Source of the DNA: Nanoarchaeum equitans Kin4-M
GTDB lineage: Archaea > Nanobdellota > Nanobdellia > Nanobdellales > Nanoarchaeaceae
Assembly: GCA_000008085.1 (NCBI GenBank)
Contig: AE017199.1
Coordinates: forward strand, 390,001 to 422,000
Direction of reading: 5' to 3'
Length of the DNA: 32,000 bases
The notes beneath the pieces were generated by a model that saw nothing but the letters and a program-made list of their open reading frames with translations, was not told the origin of the DNA and made no database searches. Positions 1,412 to 27,098 of this stretch are shown one piece after another (position 1 is the stretch's first letter; every line of letters starts with the position of its first letter). Made by a program: the position numbers and the translations under genes.

Positions 1412-1950
1412 TCTTCTTCAAAAATTTGTCCTTCGAAAACATATACTTCGGTTTTTGGGTCTAACCAACAATCCATTGGTAAGCCTGCTTTTAAGCAGCC
1501 ATAGGATAAAAACTCTTTAGCGTCCCAACCTTCTTCTATAGGAACTTGGGGCAATAATAAACCGGAATATGGGCCCCTTTTAATTATTATACCATGTTTG
1601 CCGATTTTTATTTTTTCCAAATACTCTAATGGGTTATTAACTATTAACTTTCTTGGAGGGGTTAAAACAGTAACCTCAAATTTCACATTATCTAACTCTT
1701 CTTTTTGTAATGGTGGAAACCTTGGATCTTCAAAAGCGGCCATTAAAGCGCTGTATTTTAGGGATTGCCATAGAGGGTATATTGGATATGGTATCCCCAT
1801 ACAACCTCTTAATTGGTTGTCCAAAGTTTTTATCGTTGTAAACGCACCAGCTTTATAGTTTAGTTTTTCTTTTATTTCATCGGGTATTTCGTAATCTTTA
1901 CCTTCTAAAGCGTATTCAACTATTTTTCTCGCTATCTTCGCTAGGTTCAT
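1408..1950 (-). CDS. AMMECR1-domain protein
   Basis: 180 aa with GAFTTIK...LRGCMGIPYP and AAFEDPRFPPL, matching the AMMECR1 family core (LRGCIG, DPRF). Confidence 0.85.
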   Translation of the reverse strand: MNLAKIARKIVEYALEGKDYEIPDEIKEKLNYKAGAFTTIKTLDNQLRGCMGIPYPIYPLWQSLKYSALMAAFEDPRFPPLQKEELDNVKFEVTVLTPPRKLIVNNPLEYLEKIKIGKHGIIIKRGPYSGLLLPQVPIEEGWDAKEFLSYGCLKAGLPMDCWLDPKTEVYVFEGQIFEED

Positions 1951-3966: not shown

Positions 3967-6900
3967 GGCCACCACCGTCCGCAGGACCGCTGACCCCGCC
4001 CGGTGGATGCCTGGGCTCGGGAGCCGAAGAAGGGCGTGGCAAGCTGCGATAAGCCAGGGGGAGGCGCACGCAGCCGTTGATCCCTGGATCCCCGAATGGG
4101 ACCTCCTGCCCGGGGGTTAACCCCGGGCGCCCCGATAAGGGGCGGGAACGCGGGGAAGTGAAACATCTCAGTACCCGCAGGAAAAGAAAGAGAAATTCGA
4201 TGGCGGGAGTAGGGGCGACCGAAACCGCCGTAGCCCAAACTGAATCCCGTAGGGAAACCTACGGGAGATGTGGGGTTGTTGGGGGTGGCGGCTTTCCCTC
4301 CCGCGGGAACCCGAACTCCGGTGGAAGTCCGGGGCCGTAGAGGGTGACAGCCCCGTAGGGGTAACCGCGGAGGGAGTGCCGCCACTTCCAGAGTACCGCG
4401 CCTCGGATATGGCGCGGGAAGCTGGGGGACACACGCCCCCAAGGCTAAATACTCCCCGAGTCCGATAGCGGACTAGTAGGGTGACCGAAAGGTGAAAGAG
4501 AACCCGTGGAAGGGAGTGAAAAAGAGCCTGAAACCGGGCGGGGATAGTCAGGTGGGGCCGGTTAAGCCCCCGGGCAAGGAACCCCCGGCGACGGGGTAGT
4601 ACTTGCCCGGGGGCTAGCCGGTTCCACCGTACGTTCGGGAGCACGTGCGGGGGAGTGTGCCCGAGTGGCGAGGTTAAGGGGATAAACCCCGAAGCCGTAG
4701 GGAAACCGAAGGCCCGCAGCCCTTATGGGCGAGGGGCCGCGTCCTATACGGGCGTAAGTCACTCGGGCACGACCAGAAGCCCGGCGATCTACCCCGGGGC
4801 AGGGTGAAGCGGGGTTTTTCCCCGTGGAGGCCCGAAGGGGTGGTGGCCTATCCCCTCCTCTGACCCCGGGGTAGGGGCGATATACCAATCGAGCCGGGTG
4901 ATAGCTGGTTCCCGCCGAAATGGGCTGCAGTCCAGCCTCGGCGGAGGCACCCTCGGGTGTAGAGCGACGGATTCCCGTGGCAAGGGGGTTAACCCCACCA
5001 CGGGAGTCCAACTCCGAAGCCCGAGGGGCCGTAGATGCCGGGAGACGGGGGCGGCGGATAAGCCGCCGTTCCGAGACGGGAACAACCGAGACCGGGGTTA
5101 AGGCCCCTAAGTGCCGGCTAAGTGGCTGGAAGGGTGTCCGCTCCCTAAGACACCGGGGATGTGGGACTAGTAGTGTCCATCATCTAAGGAGTGTGCAACA
5201 ACTCACCCGGCGAGGGAGCGGGCCCCGCAGATGGACGGGCCTAAGCCGGCCGCCGAGACCCCGGGCCGGGGATCCGATGGATCCCCGTGCGGTAGGCGGG
5301 CGTCCCGGTGGCCTAGAAGGCGGGCCGTGAGGTCCGCTGGAGCCGCCGGGAATGAGAATCCCCGCGTGAGTAGGAGCAAAGAGGGGTGAGAAGCCCCTCC
5401 GCCGAAAGGGAAAAGGGTTCCCTGGCAATGACCATCAGCCAGGGGTGAGTCGGTCCTAAGGCCGGCGGTAACTCCGCTCGGCCGAAAGGGAAAGGGGTTA
5501 ATATTCCCCTACCGCCCGGGTAGGCGCGGCAACGCCAAGCCCTACTCCCGACGCCTGGGGCTAGGCCGACCGCGGATTTCCCGCGGCCAACCGGGATAGG
5601 GCCGGGGAGTGCCATTATGGCGAGAACCGGCCTAAACCCGGGACGGGGCCCCCGTATGGGGGCTTCGGCCGAGGCCCTGGGCCCATGAAAAGGGAGTAGG
5701 GAACGATCCCGGGCGACCGTACCGAGAACCGTGACAGGTTCCCTGGGTGAGCAGCCTAAGGCGGTGGGGTATAACCTGGCCGAGGGAAATCGGCAAATTG
5801 GCCCCGTATCTTCGGTAGAAGGGGTGCCTGCGGTCGTGGGGTAATCCTGCGACCGCAGGTCGCAGTGACAAGGGCGGGCCGACTGTTTACTAAAAACATA
5901 GCCTCCGGCAAGCCCGAAAGGGTGTGTACCGGAGGTGACGCCTGCCCAGTGCCGGTACCTGAACCCCCCGTCCAAGGGGGCTAAGGGCCGGTAAACGGCG
6001 GGAGTAACTGTAACTCTCTTAAGGTAGCGTAGTCCCTTGCCGGTTAAATGCCGGCTCTGCGAACGGCGTAACGAGCTCGCCACTGTCCTCGGCCAGGGCC
6101 CCCTGAAAACGCCGTTCCCGTGGATAGGCGGGAGAGGCCCGGTGGGAAGAGAAGACCCCGTGAAGCTTAACCGCAGCCTGTCGTTGCCCCGTTGTCCCCC
6201 ACGCTCAGCGTAGCGGGGAGCGATGAACCGGCCCCTCCGGGGGTCGGGGATGCGCCCATGAGACACCCGCCGTGGGGGACAACGGGGCTAACCCCGAAAG
6301 GGGGACAGCGGCAGGTGGGCGGTTTGGCTGGGGCGGCACACCGCCGAAAAGATATCGGCGGTGCCCAAAGGTCGGCTCAGGCGGGTCAGAAATCCGCCGT
6401 AGAGTGCAAGGGCAAAAGCCGGCCTGACACGGCCCTTTACAAGGGGCCGTGGCGGGAAACCGCGGCCTAGCGAACCCCGGTAGCCCCCGTGTGGGGCTTC
6501 GGGACGACGGAAAAGCTACTCCGGGGGTAACAGCTTGGTCGCGGGCGAAAGTTCCCATCGACCCCGCGGTTTGAGACCTCGATGTCGGCTCTTCTCACCC
6601 TGGCCGTGCAGCAGCGGCCAAGGGTGGGGGTGTTCACCCATTAAAGAGGAACGTGAGCTGGGTTTAGTACGCCGCGAGGCAGTGTGGATTCTATCTACCG
6701 GGCCTGTTCGGCGGCTGAGGGGAAGGACGGCCTAGTACGAAAGGAACGGCCGTCCGGCGCCTCTAGTCGACGGGGTGTCCGTATGGGCAGCCCCGGCAGC
6801 CACGCGCTAGGGGGTAAGGGCTGAATGCATCTAAGCCCGAACCCCTCCCCGAAAAGAGCCGCCGATCCCCCTCGGGTAGAAGACCCGGTTGATGGGGGGG

Positions 6901-6978
6901 CGGTGGAAGCCCCGAGGGTTTCCGAGGGGCGAGCCGGCCCCTCCCAATCGGGGGGTGGTCCTGCGGACGGTGGTGGCC
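3967..6978 (+). rRNA. rrl: 23S (LSU) rRNA including its terminal processing stem
   Basis: Contains conserved LSU blocks GGTGGATGCCTGGGC, GAAGGGCGTGGCAAGCTGCGATAAGCC, GGGGAAGTGAAACATCTCAGTACC, TTAAGGTAGCG and CTGAATGCATCTAAGCC. Nt 3967-3988 (ggccaccaccgtccgcaggacc) is the exact reverse complement of 6957-6978. It is very GC-rich in an AT-rich context. Mature ends lie somewhere inside the stem. Confidence 0.95.
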
Positions 6979-10530: not shown

Positions 10531-11254
10531 TATAGAGAAACAAATAATAGAGATATTAAAGAAGAAACCTAAGGGCGCAACTATAAAAGAGATTGCTGAA
10601 GAGTTAGGAATAAATAAAATGACTGCTTTAAGGTATTTAGAGGTTCTTAAAACTAAAGGAATAGTTGATTATGAAGAAAATAGGAGGGCCAAAATTTGGT
10701 ATGTTGTTGGAGAGACCTCTTTATTAGAAATATTCAAAAGCGAGAAACCATATTTGAAATTCCTAAAATACGAGCAAGGCAATATTTTATTGCTAGACGA
10801 TATATTAATGGTTGTTTTGCCTGCATCTTTTTTCTCTAATATTTATGATTTATATGGGGAAGAAGCAAGCCAAAAATTATACCAATTAGGTTACGAATTT
10901 GGAAAAACACTATCTTTTATATATGAAATAAATACTGGGGTTAAAGTATCCAATATAGGCTTATTGCCTGCAACAGTTAGGTCTTTGCTAAGCTTTTTCT
11001 TAAGAGGGGGCTTTGGAGAGTTAGAAAAAATTGAGGATTATAAAGACAAAATGGTAATAAAAATAAAAAATAGTTTATTTCCTAAAATTTTAGAAGGAAA
11101 AGGCAAGAAATGCCATTTCTTAGCTGGTTACATAGCAGGGATAGCTAATGTTTTAACAGGCAAAAACTTAAAAGTTTATGAATCCAAATGTGTTGGAGAA
11201 GGTTATAACTATTGTGAATTCGTGATAATGAAGAATGATTCAACCGCTGAATAA
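10523..11254 (+). CDS. winged-HTH transcriptional regulator with a C-terminal V4R domain
   Basis: The N-terminal ATIKEIAEELGINKMTALRYLEVLKTKGIV is wHTH-like. The C-terminal CHFLAGYIAGIANVLTG...ESKCVGEGYNYCEF fits the V4R pattern. ATG overlaps the rpoD stop by 8 nt. Confidence 0.7.
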   Translation: MSNIEKQIIEILKKKPKGATIKEIAEELGINKMTALRYLEVLKTKGIVDYEENRRAKIWYVVGETSLLEIFKSEKPYLKFLKYEQGNILLLDDILMVVLPASFFSNIYDLYGEEASQKLYQLGYEFGKTLSFIYEINTGVKVSNIGLLPATVRSLLSFFLRGGFGELEKIEDYKDKMVIKIKNSLFPKILEGKGKKCHFLAGYIAGIANVLTGKNLKVYESKCVGEGYNYCEFVIMKNDSTAE

Positions 11255-11276
11255 TGATGAATTCAGCCTTGGCTGA
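11228..11276 (+). ncRNA. candidate box C/D sRNA (degenerate C box)
   Basis: ATGAAGA (11228-34), 12 nt, CTGA (11247-50), 3 nt, ATGATGA (11254-60), 12 nt, CTGA (11273-76). This is the exact canonical C-12-D'-3-C'-12-D spacing. It spans the convergent stops of the V4R gene and cbf5. Confidence 0.45.
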
Positions 11277-12291
11277 CCCACATTTTTGGATATAAACCAG
11301 GTTTCATAAATACTCTTTCTATATCTACAGCTATTCCTCTTTTCTTTTCTAACATTTCTTTAGAATCCATAAGGGCTATACCAATAGCAACTAATTCTCC
11401 TTTTAATGTATGTATCGAAACTAAATCGCCTTTCTTTATATTGCTATAAAGCTTGGCTATTCCTGGCACTGCTAAATTGGCCCCATGCACAATTGCAGCA
11501 ACAGCACTATCTAAAATATATATTTTTTTCAAATGTTTTACAGCCTCTTCTACAGGTAAAAACACTTTCCTTATATATTCTTCGTTCCCTTCTTCTTTCC
11601 AAAAATATAGAGAATCCACTATGTCTTGCAAATATACCGAATTGTTTTCATGGAATGGCCCAGACTTTATTCTTCTTAATTCTTGCATATGTGCCCCAAC
11701 TCCAAGCTTTACTCCTATATCATGGATTAGCTTTCTAATATATACTCCCCCTTGGGTAGAAACTCTAAATAAAACATCTTTCCCATCTATCTCTATTATT
11801 TTAATACAATAAACTTTTTTCTTTCTAGGTCTCTTTTTTACAGCACTTCTCAATGGGGGGGTTTGTATTATAGTACCTACAAATTTGGACATAACTTTAA
11901 TTATATCTTTTTCGCTAACTTCTTTATGCAAATGCATTAGAGCTACATACTCTTTACCTGCTATTAACAAAGTTTGTAAAACTTTTGTGGCTTCTCCAAT
12001 TGCTATAGGCAATACCCCAGTTACTTTTGGGTCTAAAGTACCACCATGGCCCGCTTTTACACCAACTATGTCTCTTACCCACGCTACAACTTGATGTGAA
12101 GTGGGCCCAGAAGGTTTGTCCAAATTTATTACAGAATATTTTAATAATCTCTCTATTGGTCTATTATAAGGATCTTCGCCCCATTTTTCATTAGTTTCAG
12201 CTTCTTTTTTAACCCATATTTCATATTTTTCTAACTCCCATGGTAAAGGGCATTCCTGCTCTTCTAAACATTTAGAGCAGAATATTCGCAT
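11263..12291 (-). CDS. cbf5: H/ACA RNP pseudouridine synthase Cbf5 (TruB family with PUA domain)
   Basis: INLDKPSGPTSHQVVAWVRDIVGVKAGHGGTLDPKVTGVLPIAIGEATKV. I moved the start from GTG 12309 to ATG 12291 (MRIFCSKC...), which has a TTTTTATA box at the -28/-26 position (+ coordinates 12312-12319). Confidence 0.9.
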   Translation of the reverse strand: MRIFCSKCLEEQECPLPWELEKYEIWVKKEAETNEKWGEDPYNRPIERLLKYSVINLDKPSGPTSHQVVAWVRDIVGVKAGHGGTLDPKVTGVLPIAIGEATKVLQTLLIAGKEYVALMHLHKEVSEKDIIKVMSKFVGTIIQTPPLRSAVKKRPRKKKVYCIKIIEIDGKDVLFRVSTQGGVYIRKLIHDIGVKLGVGAHMQELRRIKSGPFHENNSVYLQDIVDSLYFWKEEGNEEYIRKVFLPVEEAVKHLKKIYILDSAVAAIVHGANLAVPGIAKLYSNIKKGDLVSIHTLKGELVAIGIALMDSKEMLEKKRGIAVDIERVFMKPGLYPKMWVSQG

Positions 12292-12295
12292 AAGA

Positions 12296-12319
12296 CTTAA
12301 ACATAACACATTATAAAAA
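12296..12319. promoter_or_regulatory. interleaved divergent promoters (CTTAAA for 12322 plus; TTTTTATA for cbf5 minus)
   Basis: CTTAAA at 12296-12301 is 26 nt upstream of ATG 12322. Minus-strand TTTATA (12312-12317) is 26 nt upstream of ATG 12291. Each box lies downstream of the other within a 30-nt spacer. Confidence 0.5.
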
Positions 12320-12321
12320 TT

Positions 12322-13460
12322 ATGCTATTTCTATTCGCCACAATAATAGGAGTAATACTAGGAATAATTCCTATAATACATCCGAACAATGTTATACCTT
12401 TGTTAAATTATTTGCCTTTAGATAAAATAGATTTGTCTATAATGGCCATCTCTTTTTTATTGGGTTTTAGCTTTTCCTCTATAATTCCTACAGCCCTATT
12501 AGGTTATCCTGAAAAATGCTTTAGCTTTGCCCCCATCGATTAGATTATTGAAAGAAGGCAAAGCCTGGGAGTTAATTTTATATAATTTGTATGGTAGCCT
12601 TGTTGGGGGTATATTAGCTTTGTTGTTTATCCCTTTTAATTCCCTATGTGGGAATACTAACTAAAATATTGATTAAACATAAGCTATTGCCGTTTATTTT
12701 GTTTATAATAATGGGGTATTTGTTTGCAATAGACAAAAGAGCAAAAACTTTAGAAATTATTGTTTTGGCCTCTTTATTAGGGTTAGTGACATATAATTTA
12801 ACTGTAAAAAACAAGCTTACAGCTTTGTTAACAGGTTTATTTGGATTGCCATATTTAATAACAATATACAAAGGCAAAAAACCCTCTTTCAATACTAAAA
12901 ACAAAGAAATAATAGAGATAAAACCTGCTTTAGTTGGGGTTTTAGCTGTGCTATTAGCTTCAATAATTCCTACATTGTCTCCATCTATAGCGATATTCTT
13001 TATACAAAAATTATTTAATATAAAAGGAGATTTACCTTTTGTTTACGCTTTAGGTTCTTTAACAACAGCAGATGTTGTTATATCTTTAGCGAATTTCTAT
13101 TTTAATGGCTCCGCAAGAAATGGTGCTATAGTTTTTGTCAAGAATTTACTAGGAAAAATAGATTTTAATACTTTTCTGTTGTTTTTGGCTAACACAATTG
13201 TTAGCATAATTATAGCTTTTATTGCCACATATGTTTTTGCTAAACATTTGATAAAATACGAAATAGATGTTAGAAAGATTAAACCAATTTTGATAGGTTT
13301 TATAATAATATACCTAATAGCAGTTTCTGGTTTTGTTGGGTTATTAATAGCATTAACAGCAATGTTTGTTGGTTTAGAAGCAATAAAAAATAATATAAAT
13401 TACAGCACTTTGGGTGTGGCATTAATGTTCCCATTAGCTATAAATATATTGCTTAGTTAA
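12322..13460 (+). pseudogene. DUF112/TctA-like (COG1784-type) polytopic membrane protein split over three reading frames
   Basis: The three segments are frame 1 12322-12543, frame 2 12503-12664 and frame 3 12618/12648-13460. All are hydrophobic, and read across the shifts they give ...GIIPIIHPNN...LLGYPE(K)NALALPPSIRLLKEGKAWELILYNLYGSLVGGILALLF...GILTKIL.... The family assignment is from memory of the G-x-PG-x-H-x-N and LPghrLL-x-G-x-x-EA patterns. Confidence 0.5.
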
Positions 13461-13465
13461 TACAA

Positions 13466-13517
13466 ATGATGATCGTTTACCGGCACTGATTAGTGATGTG
13501 GTTCAGGTACCGGCTGA
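13466..13517 (+). ncRNA. box C/D sRNA with two guides against 23S rRNA
   Basis: C ATGATGA 13466-72, D' CTGA 13486-89, C' GTGATGT 13493-99, D CTGA 13514-17. Guide 13500-13513 is a perfect complement of 23S 5952-5965. Guide 13473-13484 pairs with 23S 5987-5998. TATAAA at 13439-13444 is 26 nt upstream of 13465. Confidence 0.85.
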
Positions 13518-13519
13518 TA

Positions 13520-13525
13520 TTTAAA
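13520..13525 (+). promoter_or_regulatory. TATA box for leaderless metG
   Basis: TTTAAA starts 26 nt upstream of the A of ATG 13546 and lies 2 nt after the sRNA D box. Confidence 0.65.
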
Positions 13526-13545: not shown

Positions 13546-15876
13546 ATGCGTATCCTAGTTACTGCGGCTTTGCCATATTCGAATGGGCCAATCCATTTGG
13601 GCCATATCGCTGGGGCTTATCTGCCAGCAGATATATTTTATAGATTCGTAAAACTAAAAGGATATAATGCATTGTACATATGTGGGTCTGACCAATATGG
13701 ATCGCCTATCGAATTAAACGCAATAAAACTAAACATAGATCCAAAGGACTATGCTTCATTCTATAGAAAAATACAAGAAGAGATTTTCAAAAAATTTAAC
13801 ATAAAATTTGATATATATTCAGGAACGGCCGAATCCAATATACATCCTATAATAGTAAAGGAATTCTTTTTATCATTATTTAGTGCAGGCCTTTTAATAG
13901 AAAAAGAACAAGAATTGCCATATGATCCTAAAATAAAAAGATTTTTACCGGATCGATTTGTTGTAGGGCAATGTCCCTATTGTGGGTATGAAAAAGCCTA
14001 TGGGGATCAATGTGAAAAATGTGGTAGACTATTAGAGCCTAAAGAGTTAATTAATCCTAAAAGTGCCATAACTGGAGAAAAAGTAATTTTCAAAAAGACG
14101 AGACATTTGTTTTTCAATATTCCAAAATTAAAAGATAAACTAAAACAATACATTGAATCTAAAAAGGATGTATGGAATGATTTTACATACAGTTGGTCTT
14201 TAGCATTATTGGATAACTTTAAAGAAAGGGCAATAACTAGAGATAACAAATGGGGCGTAAAAGTTCCCGCTAAGGAGATGTTAGAAATATTAAAAAAAGC
14301 TCTAAAAGAAGGAAAAACCCCAAAAGATTTCGGTTTATTAATTGATAGTACTAACGAAAAAGATTTAGAAAATCATATAAAAGAATACGAAAACAAGGTT
14401 TTATATGTATGGTTTGATGCGCCCATAGGGTATATATCTTTTACTTTTGAGACTTCTCCTGAATATAGATATTATTGGGACGAAAAAGAAAAACCTTATA
14501 TAGTGCATTTTATTGGGAAAGACAATATTCCTTTCCATACAATATTTTGGCCTGCATTAATAATTGGGCGAAATTTGGGATATAAAAATATAAACCATAT
14601 ATTAGATTTCGATATAGCTTTGCCTTACCAAGTATTTGGTAATCCTTATCTAAACTATTATGGCAAAAAATTCTCAAAAAGCAAAAGGTGGGGGGTATTT
14701 TTGGATAACATAGATAAAATAGATATAGATATAGACTATTTCAGATTCTATTTAGCCTACATTCATACAGTGTCTAAAGATATGTCTTTCGAATGGGACC
14801 AATTCAAAGAAGTAATAAACAAAGAATTAGTCGATAACATTGGCAATTTTATCCATAGGGTTTTAACCTTTATATACAATAGATTTAATGGTATTCCCCC
14901 AAAAATAGAGCATCTAGACGACAAAGATAAAGAACTTTTAGATAAAATAAAGCAATTACCCGAAAAAGTGTTTAACTTTATATGGAAGGGCGAAATTGGA
15001 AATGCCTTAAGAGAGATCGTTAATACCTCTAATTTGGCTAACAAATATTTCCAAGAAAAAGAGCCATGGAAAACTAATGATCCAAATACTATTGCTATTG
15101 CTTTCGAAGCAGTAAAAACCTTTATAATTCTGTTATATCCATTTATTCCGGAAAAGGCCAAACTATTAGCGTCTATAGCTAATATAGATATAAAATGGGA
15201 TTTCAATCAAAAAGTAGAAAAAATAAACAAACCATTTATCGTTTTCCACAAATTAAGCGATAACCAAATAGAAATGGCAAAGCAAATCTTAACCAATCCA
15301 AAAGAATATGATTTGGGTAAAAAGAAAGTTATAGGTGTTTTAAGATATGAAGATGAGTTATATAAAATAGAATTAGAATGTGACGACAACCCATGGGTTT
15401 GTCTAAAAAGAGAGTTAGATAAAAGAAAAATAAAATACATATATGATACAGTTAAAGGGGATGTACCCCCACATATAATAGATGGCAATACTTATATATA
15501 TTTATTGCCGGCATTAGAGAAACCCAATTTAGAAAAGGCAGAAGAAGAATATGGCTTAGTTAGCTATTTGGATTTTGCTAAACTAGACATGAGAGTTGGT
15601 AAAATTATAGATGTGCAAGACCACCCAAATGCGGATAAGCTTTATATAATAAAAGTAAGCCTTGGCAATAAACAAAAAACCTTAGTTGGGGGACTAAAGC
15701 AATATTATAAAAAAGAAGAGCTAATAGGAAAGTACGTAGTTTTAATAAATAACTTAAAGCCTAAACAATTAAGAGGAATAACATCAGAAGGAATGCTATT
15801 AGCTGCAGACGATGGTAAAGAGGTAGCATTATTAATGCCGGACAAACCAATTAGTTTAGGTTCAAAAGTTCGTTAA
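13546..15876 (+). CDS. metG: methionyl-tRNA synthetase with a C-terminal Trbp111/EMAP-like tRNA-binding domain
   Basis: HIGH motif (PYSNGPIHLGHIAG), zinc knuckle CPYCGYEKAYGDQCEKCG and KMSKS-like KFSKSKRWG. The C-terminal LDMRVGKIIDVQDHPNADKLYIIKVSLG...GITSEGMLLAA gives the tRNA-binding domain. Confidence 0.95.
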   Translation: MRILVTAALPYSNGPIHLGHIAGAYLPADIFYRFVKLKGYNALYICGSDQYGSPIELNAIKLNIDPKDYASFYRKIQEEIFKKFNIKFDIYSGTAESNIHPIIVKEFFLSLFSAGLLIEKEQELPYDPKIKRFLPDRFVVGQCPYCGYEKAYGDQCEKCGRLLEPKELINPKSAITGEKVIFKKTRHLFFNIPKLKDKLKQYIESKKDVWNDFTYSWSLALLDNFKERAITRDNKWGVKVPAKEMLEILKKALKEGKTPKDFGLLIDSTNEKDLENHIKEYENKVLYVWFDAPIGYISFTFETSPEYRYYWDEKEKPYIVHFIGKDNIPFHTIFWPALIIGRNLGYKNINHILDFDIALPYQVFGNPYLNYYGKKFSKSKRWGVFLDNIDKIDIDIDYFRFYLAYIHTVSKDMSFEWDQFKEVINKELVDNIGNFIHRVLTFIYNRFNGIPPKIEHLDDKDKELLDKIKQLPEKVFNFIWKGEIGNALREIVNTSNLANKYFQEKEPWKTNDPNTIAIAFEAVKTFIILLYPFIPEKAKLLASIANIDIKWDFNQKVEKINKPFIVFHKLSDNQIEMAKQILTNPKEYDLGKKKVIGVLRYEDELYKIELECDDNPWVCLKRELDKRKIKYIYDTVKGDVPPHIIDGNTYIYLLPALEKPNLEKAEEEYGLVSYLDFAKLDMRVGKIIDVQDHPNADKLYIIKVSLGNKQKTLVGGLKQYYKKEELIGKYVVLINNLKPKQLRGITSEGMLLAADDGKEVALLMPDKPISLGSKVR

Positions 15877-17576: not shown

Positions 17577-17650
17577 TGGGCCCGCGGGGATTCGAACCCC
17601 GGACCTCCGGGACCCAAACCCGGCGTCCTAGCCAGGCTAGACTACGGGCC
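17576..17650 (-). tRNA. tRNA-Pro (UGG)
   Basis: Full cloverleaf on the minus strand: GGGCCCG/UA/GUCU-AGCCUGGCUA-GGAC/G/CCGGG-UUUGGGU-CCCGG/AGGUC/CGGGG-UUCGAAU-CCCCG/CGGGCCC/A. No CCA is encoded. Confidence 0.95.
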
Positions 17651-17670
17651 CAGAGTTTGCAAAACTAAAT

Positions 17671-27024: not shown

Positions 27025-27098
27025 CGCCCGGGCCCGGATTCGAACCGGGGACCTGCCGGTTAACAGCCGGCCGCTCTACCGGGCTGAGCTACCCGGGC
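27025..27098 (-). tRNA. tRNA-Asn (GUU)
   Basis: GCCCGGG/UA/GCUC-AGCCCGGUA-GAGC/G/GCCGG-CUGUUAA-CCGGC/AGGUC/CCCGG-UUCGAAU-CCGGG/CCCGGGC/G. No CCA is encoded. Confidence 0.95.

What the first reader, a model, noticed from the sequence alone, without database searches (positions are those of the whole stretch)
13466..13517. Dual-guide box C/D sRNA whose two guides both target the 23S rRNA in this window, wedged between a gene end and the metG TATA box
The 85-nt spacer holds C (ATGATGA 13466-72), D' (CTGA 13486-89), C' (GTGATGT 13493-99) and D (CTGA 13514-17). The D guide GGTTCAGGTACCGG (13500-13513) is a perfect 14-nt reverse complement of 23S 5952-5965 (CCGGTACCTGAACC). The D' guide (13473-13484) pairs with 23S 5987-5998 through 11 Watson-Crick pairs plus one G-U. 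The N+5 rule predicts 2'-O-methylation at window positions U5956 and G5990, 34 nt apart in the conserved domain IV block (...CGGTAAACGGCGG...TTAAGGTAGCG). Guide spacers are 13 and 14 nt rather than the usual 12. A TATAAA box (13439-13444) inside the upstream gene puts the TSS at 13465, one nt before box C. Box D ends 2 nt before the metG TATA box, so three transcription units are packed into under 110 nt.
Basis: partly seen in the sequence, partly recalled or inferred. Interest (0 to 1): 0.6.

Follow-up and report, generated by a model that had tools for sequence, protein, structure and literature searches.

The report
Known Nanoarchaeum rRNA methylation guide RNA
This is a real small guide RNA that directs two methyl marks onto the large ribosomal RNA of the tiny archaeon Nanoarchaeum equitans, but it was already found by RNA sequencing and published in 2012 as sRNA26, with the same two predicted targets.

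Summary

The window is bases 390001-422000 of a 490,885-bp genome, the size of N. equitans NC_005213. The element is the published C/D box sRNA26 / NeqsR26 (genome 403464-403522, RNA-seq coverage 55,200; Randau 2012, Dennis 2015). The published target predictions are the same two nucleotides. It is therefore already known.

Three things were added here:
- The two guides cover opposite strands of 23S helix 68.
- All 19 relatives of the same order that matched, out of 20 searched, carry an orthologous sRNA with the same D guide. Two guide positions change together with the 23S target in every genome that could be checked.
- The D' guide is different in every relative. The G5990 guide was not found outside N. 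equitans among the genomes searched.

TATAAA starts at -25 from the published purine 5' end, and a random genomic position shows such a box 3.5% of the time.

Methylation at the two sites has not been shown experimentally. Interest is low.

The parts
13464..13522 (+). Mature C/D box sRNA26 (NeqsR26), 59 nt, ends as published
   Evidence: Randau 2012 Additional file 2: genome 403464-403522, coverage 55,200. Listed again in Dennis 2015. The window offset is 390000.
13466..13472 (+). Box C, ATGATGA
   Evidence: aligned to box C of Rfam C/D models
13473..13485 (+). D' guide spacer (13 nt). Bases 13473-13484 pair with 23S 5987-5998.
13486..13489 (+). Box D', CTGA
13490..13492 (+). 3-nt linker (TTA) between D' and C', the K-loop
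   Evidence: the 3-nt length is kept in all 20 orthologues
13493..13499 (+). Box C', GTGATGT (the last base is T instead of A)
   Evidence: the same terminal T is seen in the orthologues of G001, G009, G015, G016, G017 and G018
13500..13513 (+). D guide spacer (14 nt), a perfect complement of 23S 5952-5965
13514..13517 (+). Box D, CTGA
13439..13444 (+). TATAAA, a candidate box A promoter of the sRNA, inside the 3' end of the upstream ORF
   Evidence: It starts at -25 from the published 5' end A13464. 8 of 26 N. equitans sRNAs have such a box at -29 to -23, against 3.5% of random positions.
13520..13525 (+). TTTAAA, a candidate box A of the MetRS gene, 26 nt before its ATG (13546). It overlaps the last 3 nt of the sRNA.
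   Evidence: the box A distance rule is quoted; this is an inference
5952..5965 (+). 23S target of the D guide, on the 5' strand of helix 68. The predicted Um is at 5956, a bulged U (LSU position 1979, about E. coli A1847).
5987..5998 (+). 23S target of the D' guide, on the 3' strand of helix 68. The predicted Gm is at 5990, which pairs with C5953 in the folded rRNA (LSU position 2013, about E. coli G1896).

Best explanation
Window 13464-13522 (+) encodes the known Nanoarchaeum equitans box C/D sRNA26. The RNA binds L7Ae at its C/D k-turn and C'/D' K-loop and recruits Nop5 and fibrillarin. Its two guides pair with nascent 23S rRNA. The D guide covers the 5' strand of helix 68 and places the 2'-O-methyl on U5956. 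The D' guide covers the 3' strand of the same helix and places it on G5990. Because the two target strands pair with each other in the mature ribosome, the sRNA must act before helix 68 closes, and it may also hold the helix open as a folding chaperone.

Shown: the sequence anatomy, the abundant small transcript (published), the presence of the protein machinery genes, and evolutionary co-variation of the D guide with its target.

Inferred: the methylation itself, the chaperone role, transcription from its own TATAAA promoter at -25, and a 3' end at the T-run that is also the box A of the MetRS gene.
For: Identity with a published sRNA. The coordinates, sequence and targets are the same in Randau 2012 and Dennis 2015.

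Anatomy and complementarity are confirmed.

Rfam C/D models align end to end with all four boxes. The hits are below threshold, at E 0.006-0.03.

Both targets lie in helix 68, on opposite strands.

All 19 relatives of the order that matched, out of 20 searched, carry an orthologue with the D guide TTCAGRTACC followed by CTGA. In the 12 genomes that have both the sRNA and the 23S in hand, guide G/A follows target C/T at two separate positions without exception.

Fibrillarin, Nop and L7Ae genes are present.

A box A hexamer lies at -25 from a purine 5' end, with a background frequency of 3.5%.
Against: No experimental mapping of 2'-O-methyl groups in N. equitans 23S was found.

The spacers are 13 and 14 nt, not the canonical 12. 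C' ends in U.

The D' guide is not conserved in any relative, so the G5990 target has no comparative support.

Randau 2012 does not list sRNA26 among the sRNAs with clear promoter and terminator signals of their own.
Confidence: 0.93

Rival explanations
1. The sRNA is genuine but has no promoter of its own. It is cut out of a read-through transcript of the upstream membrane-protein gene, and the TATAAA at -25 is a chance AT-rich hexamer.
For: Randau 2012 states that most N. equitans C/D sRNAs lack identifiable promoters and are processed, and does not name sRNA26 among those with their own signals. The sRNA starts only 4 nt after the upstream stop codon.
Against: TATAAA starts at -25, the 5' nucleotide is a purine, and only 3.5% of random positions show such a box. 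All eight sRNAs with a box at this distance start with A or G, four of which (sRNA12, 13, 15 and 21) are among the five the paper says carry their own promoter.
Confidence: 0.25
2. Only the D guide directs methylation. The D' guide is a recently acquired sequence that pairs with the rRNA and acts only as a helper or chaperone arm without methylating G5990.
For: The D' guide differs in every relative: it is directed at helix 69 in family f3 and is a third sequence in G001. No relative carries a CGTTTACCG...CTGA guide. One unpaired A separates the duplex from box D', and the C' box is non-canonical.
Against: The pair at the N+5 position is a Watson-Crick C-G, and the 12-bp duplex is as good as those of accepted guides. 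The Pyrococcus sR12 consensus in Rfam carries a nearly identical D' guide, which suggests that this site is a real methylation target elsewhere in archaea.
Confidence: 0.15
3. The element is not an RNA gene. The boxes and the complementarity are chance features of an AT-rich intergenic spacer.
For: None beyond the low complexity of the flanks. The single-strand fold is no better than that of shuffles, with z = 0.02, which is expected for C/D sRNAs.
Against: The shuffle probabilities are 1.5e-5 and 2e-3 for the two guides. The published coverage is 55,200 reads. The element is conserved, with compensatory changes, across the order.
Confidence: 0.01

Closest known systems
N. equitans C/D box sRNA26 / NeqsR26 (Randau 2012, Genome Biol 13:R63, PMC3491384; Dennis et al. 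2015, BMC Genomics 16:632, PMC4644070)
   Same: It is the same locus, with the same 59-nt sequence and the same strand. The predicted 23S targets are also the same: D at the U in CCGGU, and D' at the G in GGCCG.
   Different: Nothing differs. The published 23S numbering (1955 and 1989) runs 24 lower than positions counted from the Rfam model start (1979 and 2013). The papers do not comment on the helix 68 strand arrangement, on orthologues in other Nanoarchaeota, or on a promoter for this sRNA.
Pyrococcus sR12 (Rfam RF01147) and the general Pyrococcus C/D family (RF00095)
   Same: The overall layout is the same. The sR12 consensus D' guide GCguuuACcggU is nearly the same as TCGTTTACCGGCA here. 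Its D guide contains the complement of CAGUGCCG, which lies just upstream of the D target here. It therefore looks like a double guide on the same helix 68 region.
   Different: The scores are well below the gathering thresholds (19.6 against 38 bits; 21.8 against 45). Read from the consensus, the N+5 positions are shifted by one nt for D' and about six nt for D. This was not checked against a Pyrococcus 23S sequence.
   Same: They share the four boxes, the 3-nt linker and a D guide against the same helix 68 5' strand, with compensatory guide and target changes.
   Different: The D' guide is AGGTCAGAGTTAG in family f3, which pairs with TAACTCTGACC in helix 69, and GCGTCACCTCTG in G001. In genera g3 and g5 the D spacer is one nt shorter at its 3' end, which moves the predicted site to the neighbouring A. 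The genomic neighbourhood is not conserved: no MetRS or upstream-gene homologue lies within 1.5 kb in the 13 loci tested.
Thermoproteus tenax sR133 (Dennis 2015, Additional file 1)
   Same: Its D guide, GTTCACGTACCGG followed by CTGA, differs from the D guide here at one base and is in the same register. This suggests that the helix 68 U site is also targeted in a crenarchaeon.
   Different: The D' guide is unrelated. The T. tenax 23S was not in hand, so the pairing was not verified.

Membership tests
Archaeal box C/D sRNA (2'-O-methylation guide) | Box C (RUGAUGA) near the 5' end and box D (CUGA) near the 3' end | tested here: met
   ATGATGA lies at 13466-72 and CTGA at 13514-17. The published ends are 2 nt before box C and 5 nt after box D.
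Archaeal box C/D sRNA (2'-O-methylation guide) | Internal D' and C' boxes joined by a short loop (K-loop) | tested here: met
   The order is CTGA, then TTA, then GTGATGT. C' deviates at its last base. The same deviation is conserved in 6 orthologues.
Archaeal box C/D sRNA (2'-O-methylation guide) | Guide spacers of about 12 nt between the boxes | tested here: met
   The spacers are 13 and 14 nt, slightly long. The orthologues have 12-13 nt for D' and 13-14 nt for D.
Archaeal box C/D sRNA (2'-O-methylation guide) | At least 9 bp of complementarity to rRNA or tRNA, with a Watson-Crick pair at the fifth nucleotide upstream of D or D' | tested here: met
   D has 14 of 14 Watson-Crick pairs, with A-U at N+5. 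D' has 11 Watson-Crick pairs plus one G-U, with C-G at N+5.
Archaeal box C/D sRNA (2'-O-methylation guide) | A stable small transcript of about 50-60 nt | not testable with these tools
Published RNA-seq gives a 59-nt RNA with coverage 55,200.
Archaeal box C/D sRNA (2'-O-methylation guide) | Genome encodes L7Ae, Nop5 and fibrillarin | tested here: met
   PF01269 scores 316.9 bits, PF01798 scores 210.6 bits and PF01248 scores 116.9 bits in the same genome.
Archaeal box C/D sRNA (2'-O-methylation guide) | 2'-O-methyl group present at the predicted target nucleotides | not testable with these tools
   No experimental map of N. equitans 23S ribose methylation was found in the papers read.
Archaeal box C/D sRNA (2'-O-methylation guide) | Guide co-evolves with its target | tested here: met
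   This holds for the D guide only. Two guide positions follow two 23S substitutions in 12 of 12 genomes. The D' guide has no orthologue to test.
Rfam RF01147 (sR12) / RF00095 (snoPyro_CD) | Score at or above the family gathering threshold | tested here: not met
   The scores are 19.6 against 38 bits and 21.8 against 45 bits. There was no hit at gathering thresholds. These models are genus-specific, and failing them does not bear on C/D sRNA identity.

The most novel reading that the evidence does not exclude
sRNA26 may be a helix 68 clamp whose D arm is ancient. That arm is conserved with compensatory changes across the order and possibly reaches Thermoproteus. The D' arm was replaced in the N. 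equitans lineage, so that both arms now seize the two strands of the same helix. The target of the old D' arm (helix 69) would have passed to another sRNA, sRNA22. In addition, the sRNA's 3' end overlaps the box A of the MetRS gene, which could couple or interfere with expression of that gene.
Probability: 0.3. Interest if true: 0.3.

Novelty: already known. Interest (0 to 1): 0.1.

Why it matters
It matters little as a discovery, because the RNA, its abundance and its two predicted targets have been in the literature since 2012. The result does show that the first-stage reader can recover a true C/D box guide RNA, its targets and its 5' end to within one nucleotide from raw sequence alone.

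The comparative data add a small point. Within this order, one guide arm is held fixed by co-evolution with helix 68 of the 23S rRNA. The other arm is exchanged freely among neighbouring domain IV sites. This fits current views of guide turnover in archaeal C/D sRNAs.

Tried and rejected
- The Rfam scan at gathering thresholds gave no snoRNA family. Only sub-threshold hits appeared with E-value reporting.
- A single-strand fold of the 59-nt RNA is no better than that of shuffles, z = 0.02. No terminal stem forms, as the paper also says.
- A pattern search for box C plus the D' guide in 40 relatives found only one imperfect match, in G001. It is a different C/D sRNA, with D' guide GCGTTTTTCGGG.
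- A search for the D' guide next to any CTGA in the order found only the antisense strand of the 23S genes. D' boxes other than CTGA were not searched.
- A tblastn search for MetRS and for the upstream ORF product near the orthologous sRNAs found nothing, so there is no synteny.
- The upstream 270-aa ORF has no Pfam family.
- The sigma-70 promoter scan was not used, because it does not apply to archaea.
- The idea that the boxes are chance features was rejected on shuffle statistics and conservation.

Full report
**Observation.** The stretch reads as follows:
- AAATGATGA: two flanking bases, then box C at 13466-72
- TCGTTTACCGGCA: the D' spacer, 13 nt
- CTGA: box D', 13486-89
- TTA: the linker
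- GTGATGT: box C', 13493-99
- GGTTCAGGTACCGG: the D spacer, 14 nt
- CTGA: box D, 13514-17
- TATTT: the 3' flank

The 23S rRNA gene lies at 3978-6967 of the window. It contains CCGGTACCTGAACC at 5952-5965 and GCCGGTAAACGG at 5987-5998. The D spacer is the perfect reverse complement of the first. Bases 13473-84 pair with the second through 11 Watson-Crick pairs and one G-U. The fifth nucleotide upstream of D and D' faces U5956 and G5990.

The upstream ORF ends at 13460. The next ORF starts at 13546 and is a methionyl-tRNA synthetase (PF09334, E 1.8e-130).

**Chance.** Shuffling the D guide gives a 14-nt match to the 16S or 23S in 3 of 200,000 trials. Shuffling the D' guide gives 11 or more Watson-Crick pairs in 420 of 200,000 trials. 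A strict regular expression for the C-D'-C'-D layout hits only four places in the 490,885-bp genome. All four are published sRNAs.

**Identity.** The window is bases 390001-422000 of a single-contig genome of 490,885 bp. That is the length given for N. equitans NC_005213 in Randau 2012. Additional file 2 of that paper lists sRNA26 at 403464-403522, which is window 13464-13522. Its entry gives:
- exactly this sequence
- RNA-seq coverage of 55,200
- a snoscan prediction
- PLEXY targets written CCGGTmACCTGAACCC for D and GGCCGmGTAAACGGC for D'
- the context NEQ455, then sRNA26, then NEQ457

The RNA appears again as NeqsR26 in Dennis et al. 2015. The finding is therefore a rediscovery of a known, expressed RNA.

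**Where the targets lie.** Counted from the Rfam model start, the sites are LSU 1979 and 2013. An alignment to an E. coli 23S copy places them at 1848 and 1897 of that 2905-nt copy. That copy runs one ahead of standard numbering at the helix 69 uridines. I know from memory that these are 1911, 1915 and 1917, so the standard positions are about A1847 and G1896.

The structure line of the Rfam archaeal LSU model puts both targets in helix 68. The D target covers the 5' strand, and U5956 is in a two-base bulge. The D' target covers the 3' strand, and G5990 pairs with C5953. The two guide duplexes and the helix are therefore mutually exclusive, so the sRNA must act on unfolded pre-rRNA. Helices 68-71 are a reported methylation hotspot at the subunit interface.

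Because the stem contains the palindrome CCGG, both guides end in the same heptamer, TACCGGC.

**Relatives.** A pattern for the D guide plus box D was searched in the 21 genomes of the order, N. equitans included. It found a non-rRNA match in 19 of the 20 relatives. Each match is a complete C/D sRNA with all four boxes and a 3-nt linker. Twelve genomes have both the sRNA and the 23S region in hand. Two target substitutions are matched there by guide changes:
- GGTA[C/T]CTG in the target is matched by G/A in the guide.
- GAA[C/T]C in the target is matched by G/A in the guide.

There are no exceptions (23S alignment). The genomes are related, so this amounts to a few events rather than twelve. 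It is nevertheless direct evolutionary support for the D guide-target pairing.

The D' guide is not conserved. Family f3 carries AGGTCAGAGTTAG, which pairs with TAACTCTGACC in helix 69 of its own 23S. G001 carries GCGTCACCTCTG. No relative has a CGTTTACCG guide next to CTGA. In N. equitans the corresponding helix 69 stretch is the predicted target of the D guide of sRNA22.

In genera g3 and g5 the D spacer is one nt shorter at its 3' end. This shifts the predicted site to the adjacent A. Gene neighbourhood is not conserved, in line with the mobility of C/D sRNA genes discussed by Randau.

Outside the order there are two leads:
- The Rfam sR12 consensus of Pyrococcus has almost the same D' guide.
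- T. tenax sR133 has almost the same D guide in the same register.

Neither was checked against its own rRNA.

**Machinery.** Fibrillarin, Nop5 and L7Ae genes are present in the genome.

**Promoter claims.** TATAAA starts 25 nt before the published 5' end, A13464. Across the 26 published sRNAs, eight have a strict box A hexamer starting at -29 to -23, and all eight begin with a purine. Only 3.5% of random genomic positions have one. The paper quotes box A at -26 or -27 for N. equitans promoters, but it does not list sRNA26 among those with their own signals.

TTTAAA at 13520-25 lies 26 nt before the MetRS ATG, which fits a leaderless mRNA. The published sRNA 3' end (13522) lies inside this box. 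These points are inferences.

**Not shown.** No experimental map of ribose methylation in N. equitans 23S was found. I could not look at reads myself.

**Verdict.** The element is already known, and interest is low.

Noticed in passing
window 11223-11280 (+): A second published C/D box sRNA, sRNA25 (genome 401223-401280), lies here. It overlaps the 3' end of the cbf5-like pseudouridine synthase ORF (11263-12309, minus strand; TruB/PUA/DKCLD domains). Its D guide is predicted to target the 23S.
   Followed up: partly
window 3978-6967 (+); L001 (genome 432326-433825): The 23S rRNA gene stands alone. No 16S lies upstream and Rfam finds no 5S nearby. The single 16S gene lies about 38 kb away. rRNA GC is about 65%, against about 31% for the rest of the window.
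   Followed up: partly
window 12322-13460 (+): Three overlapping ORFs in three frames (12322-12543, 12527-12664, 12648-13460) precede the sRNA. The 270-aa last piece has no Pfam family.
   Followed up: no
L003 about 1470-1610 (minus strand; G001 contig 14): Two C/D box sRNAs sit in tandem in a relative. One has the D' guide GCGTTTTTCGGG. Its D guide CTAAGAGGGTCT is complementary to the GACCCTCTTA stretch of helix 69/70. The 23S of that genome is not assembled, so the targets could not be checked.
   Followed up: partly
window 13481-13484 and 13510-13513: Both guides end in the identical heptamer TACCGGC, because the helix 68 stem contains the palindrome CCGG. Each guide could therefore form about 7 bp with the other guide's target. 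The two CCGG tetramers pair with each other in the predicted fold of the free RNA, which is no more stable than shuffles.
   Followed up: partly
window 17577-17651 (-) and 27025-27098 (-): There are two tRNA genes above the Rfam gathering score.
   Followed up: no
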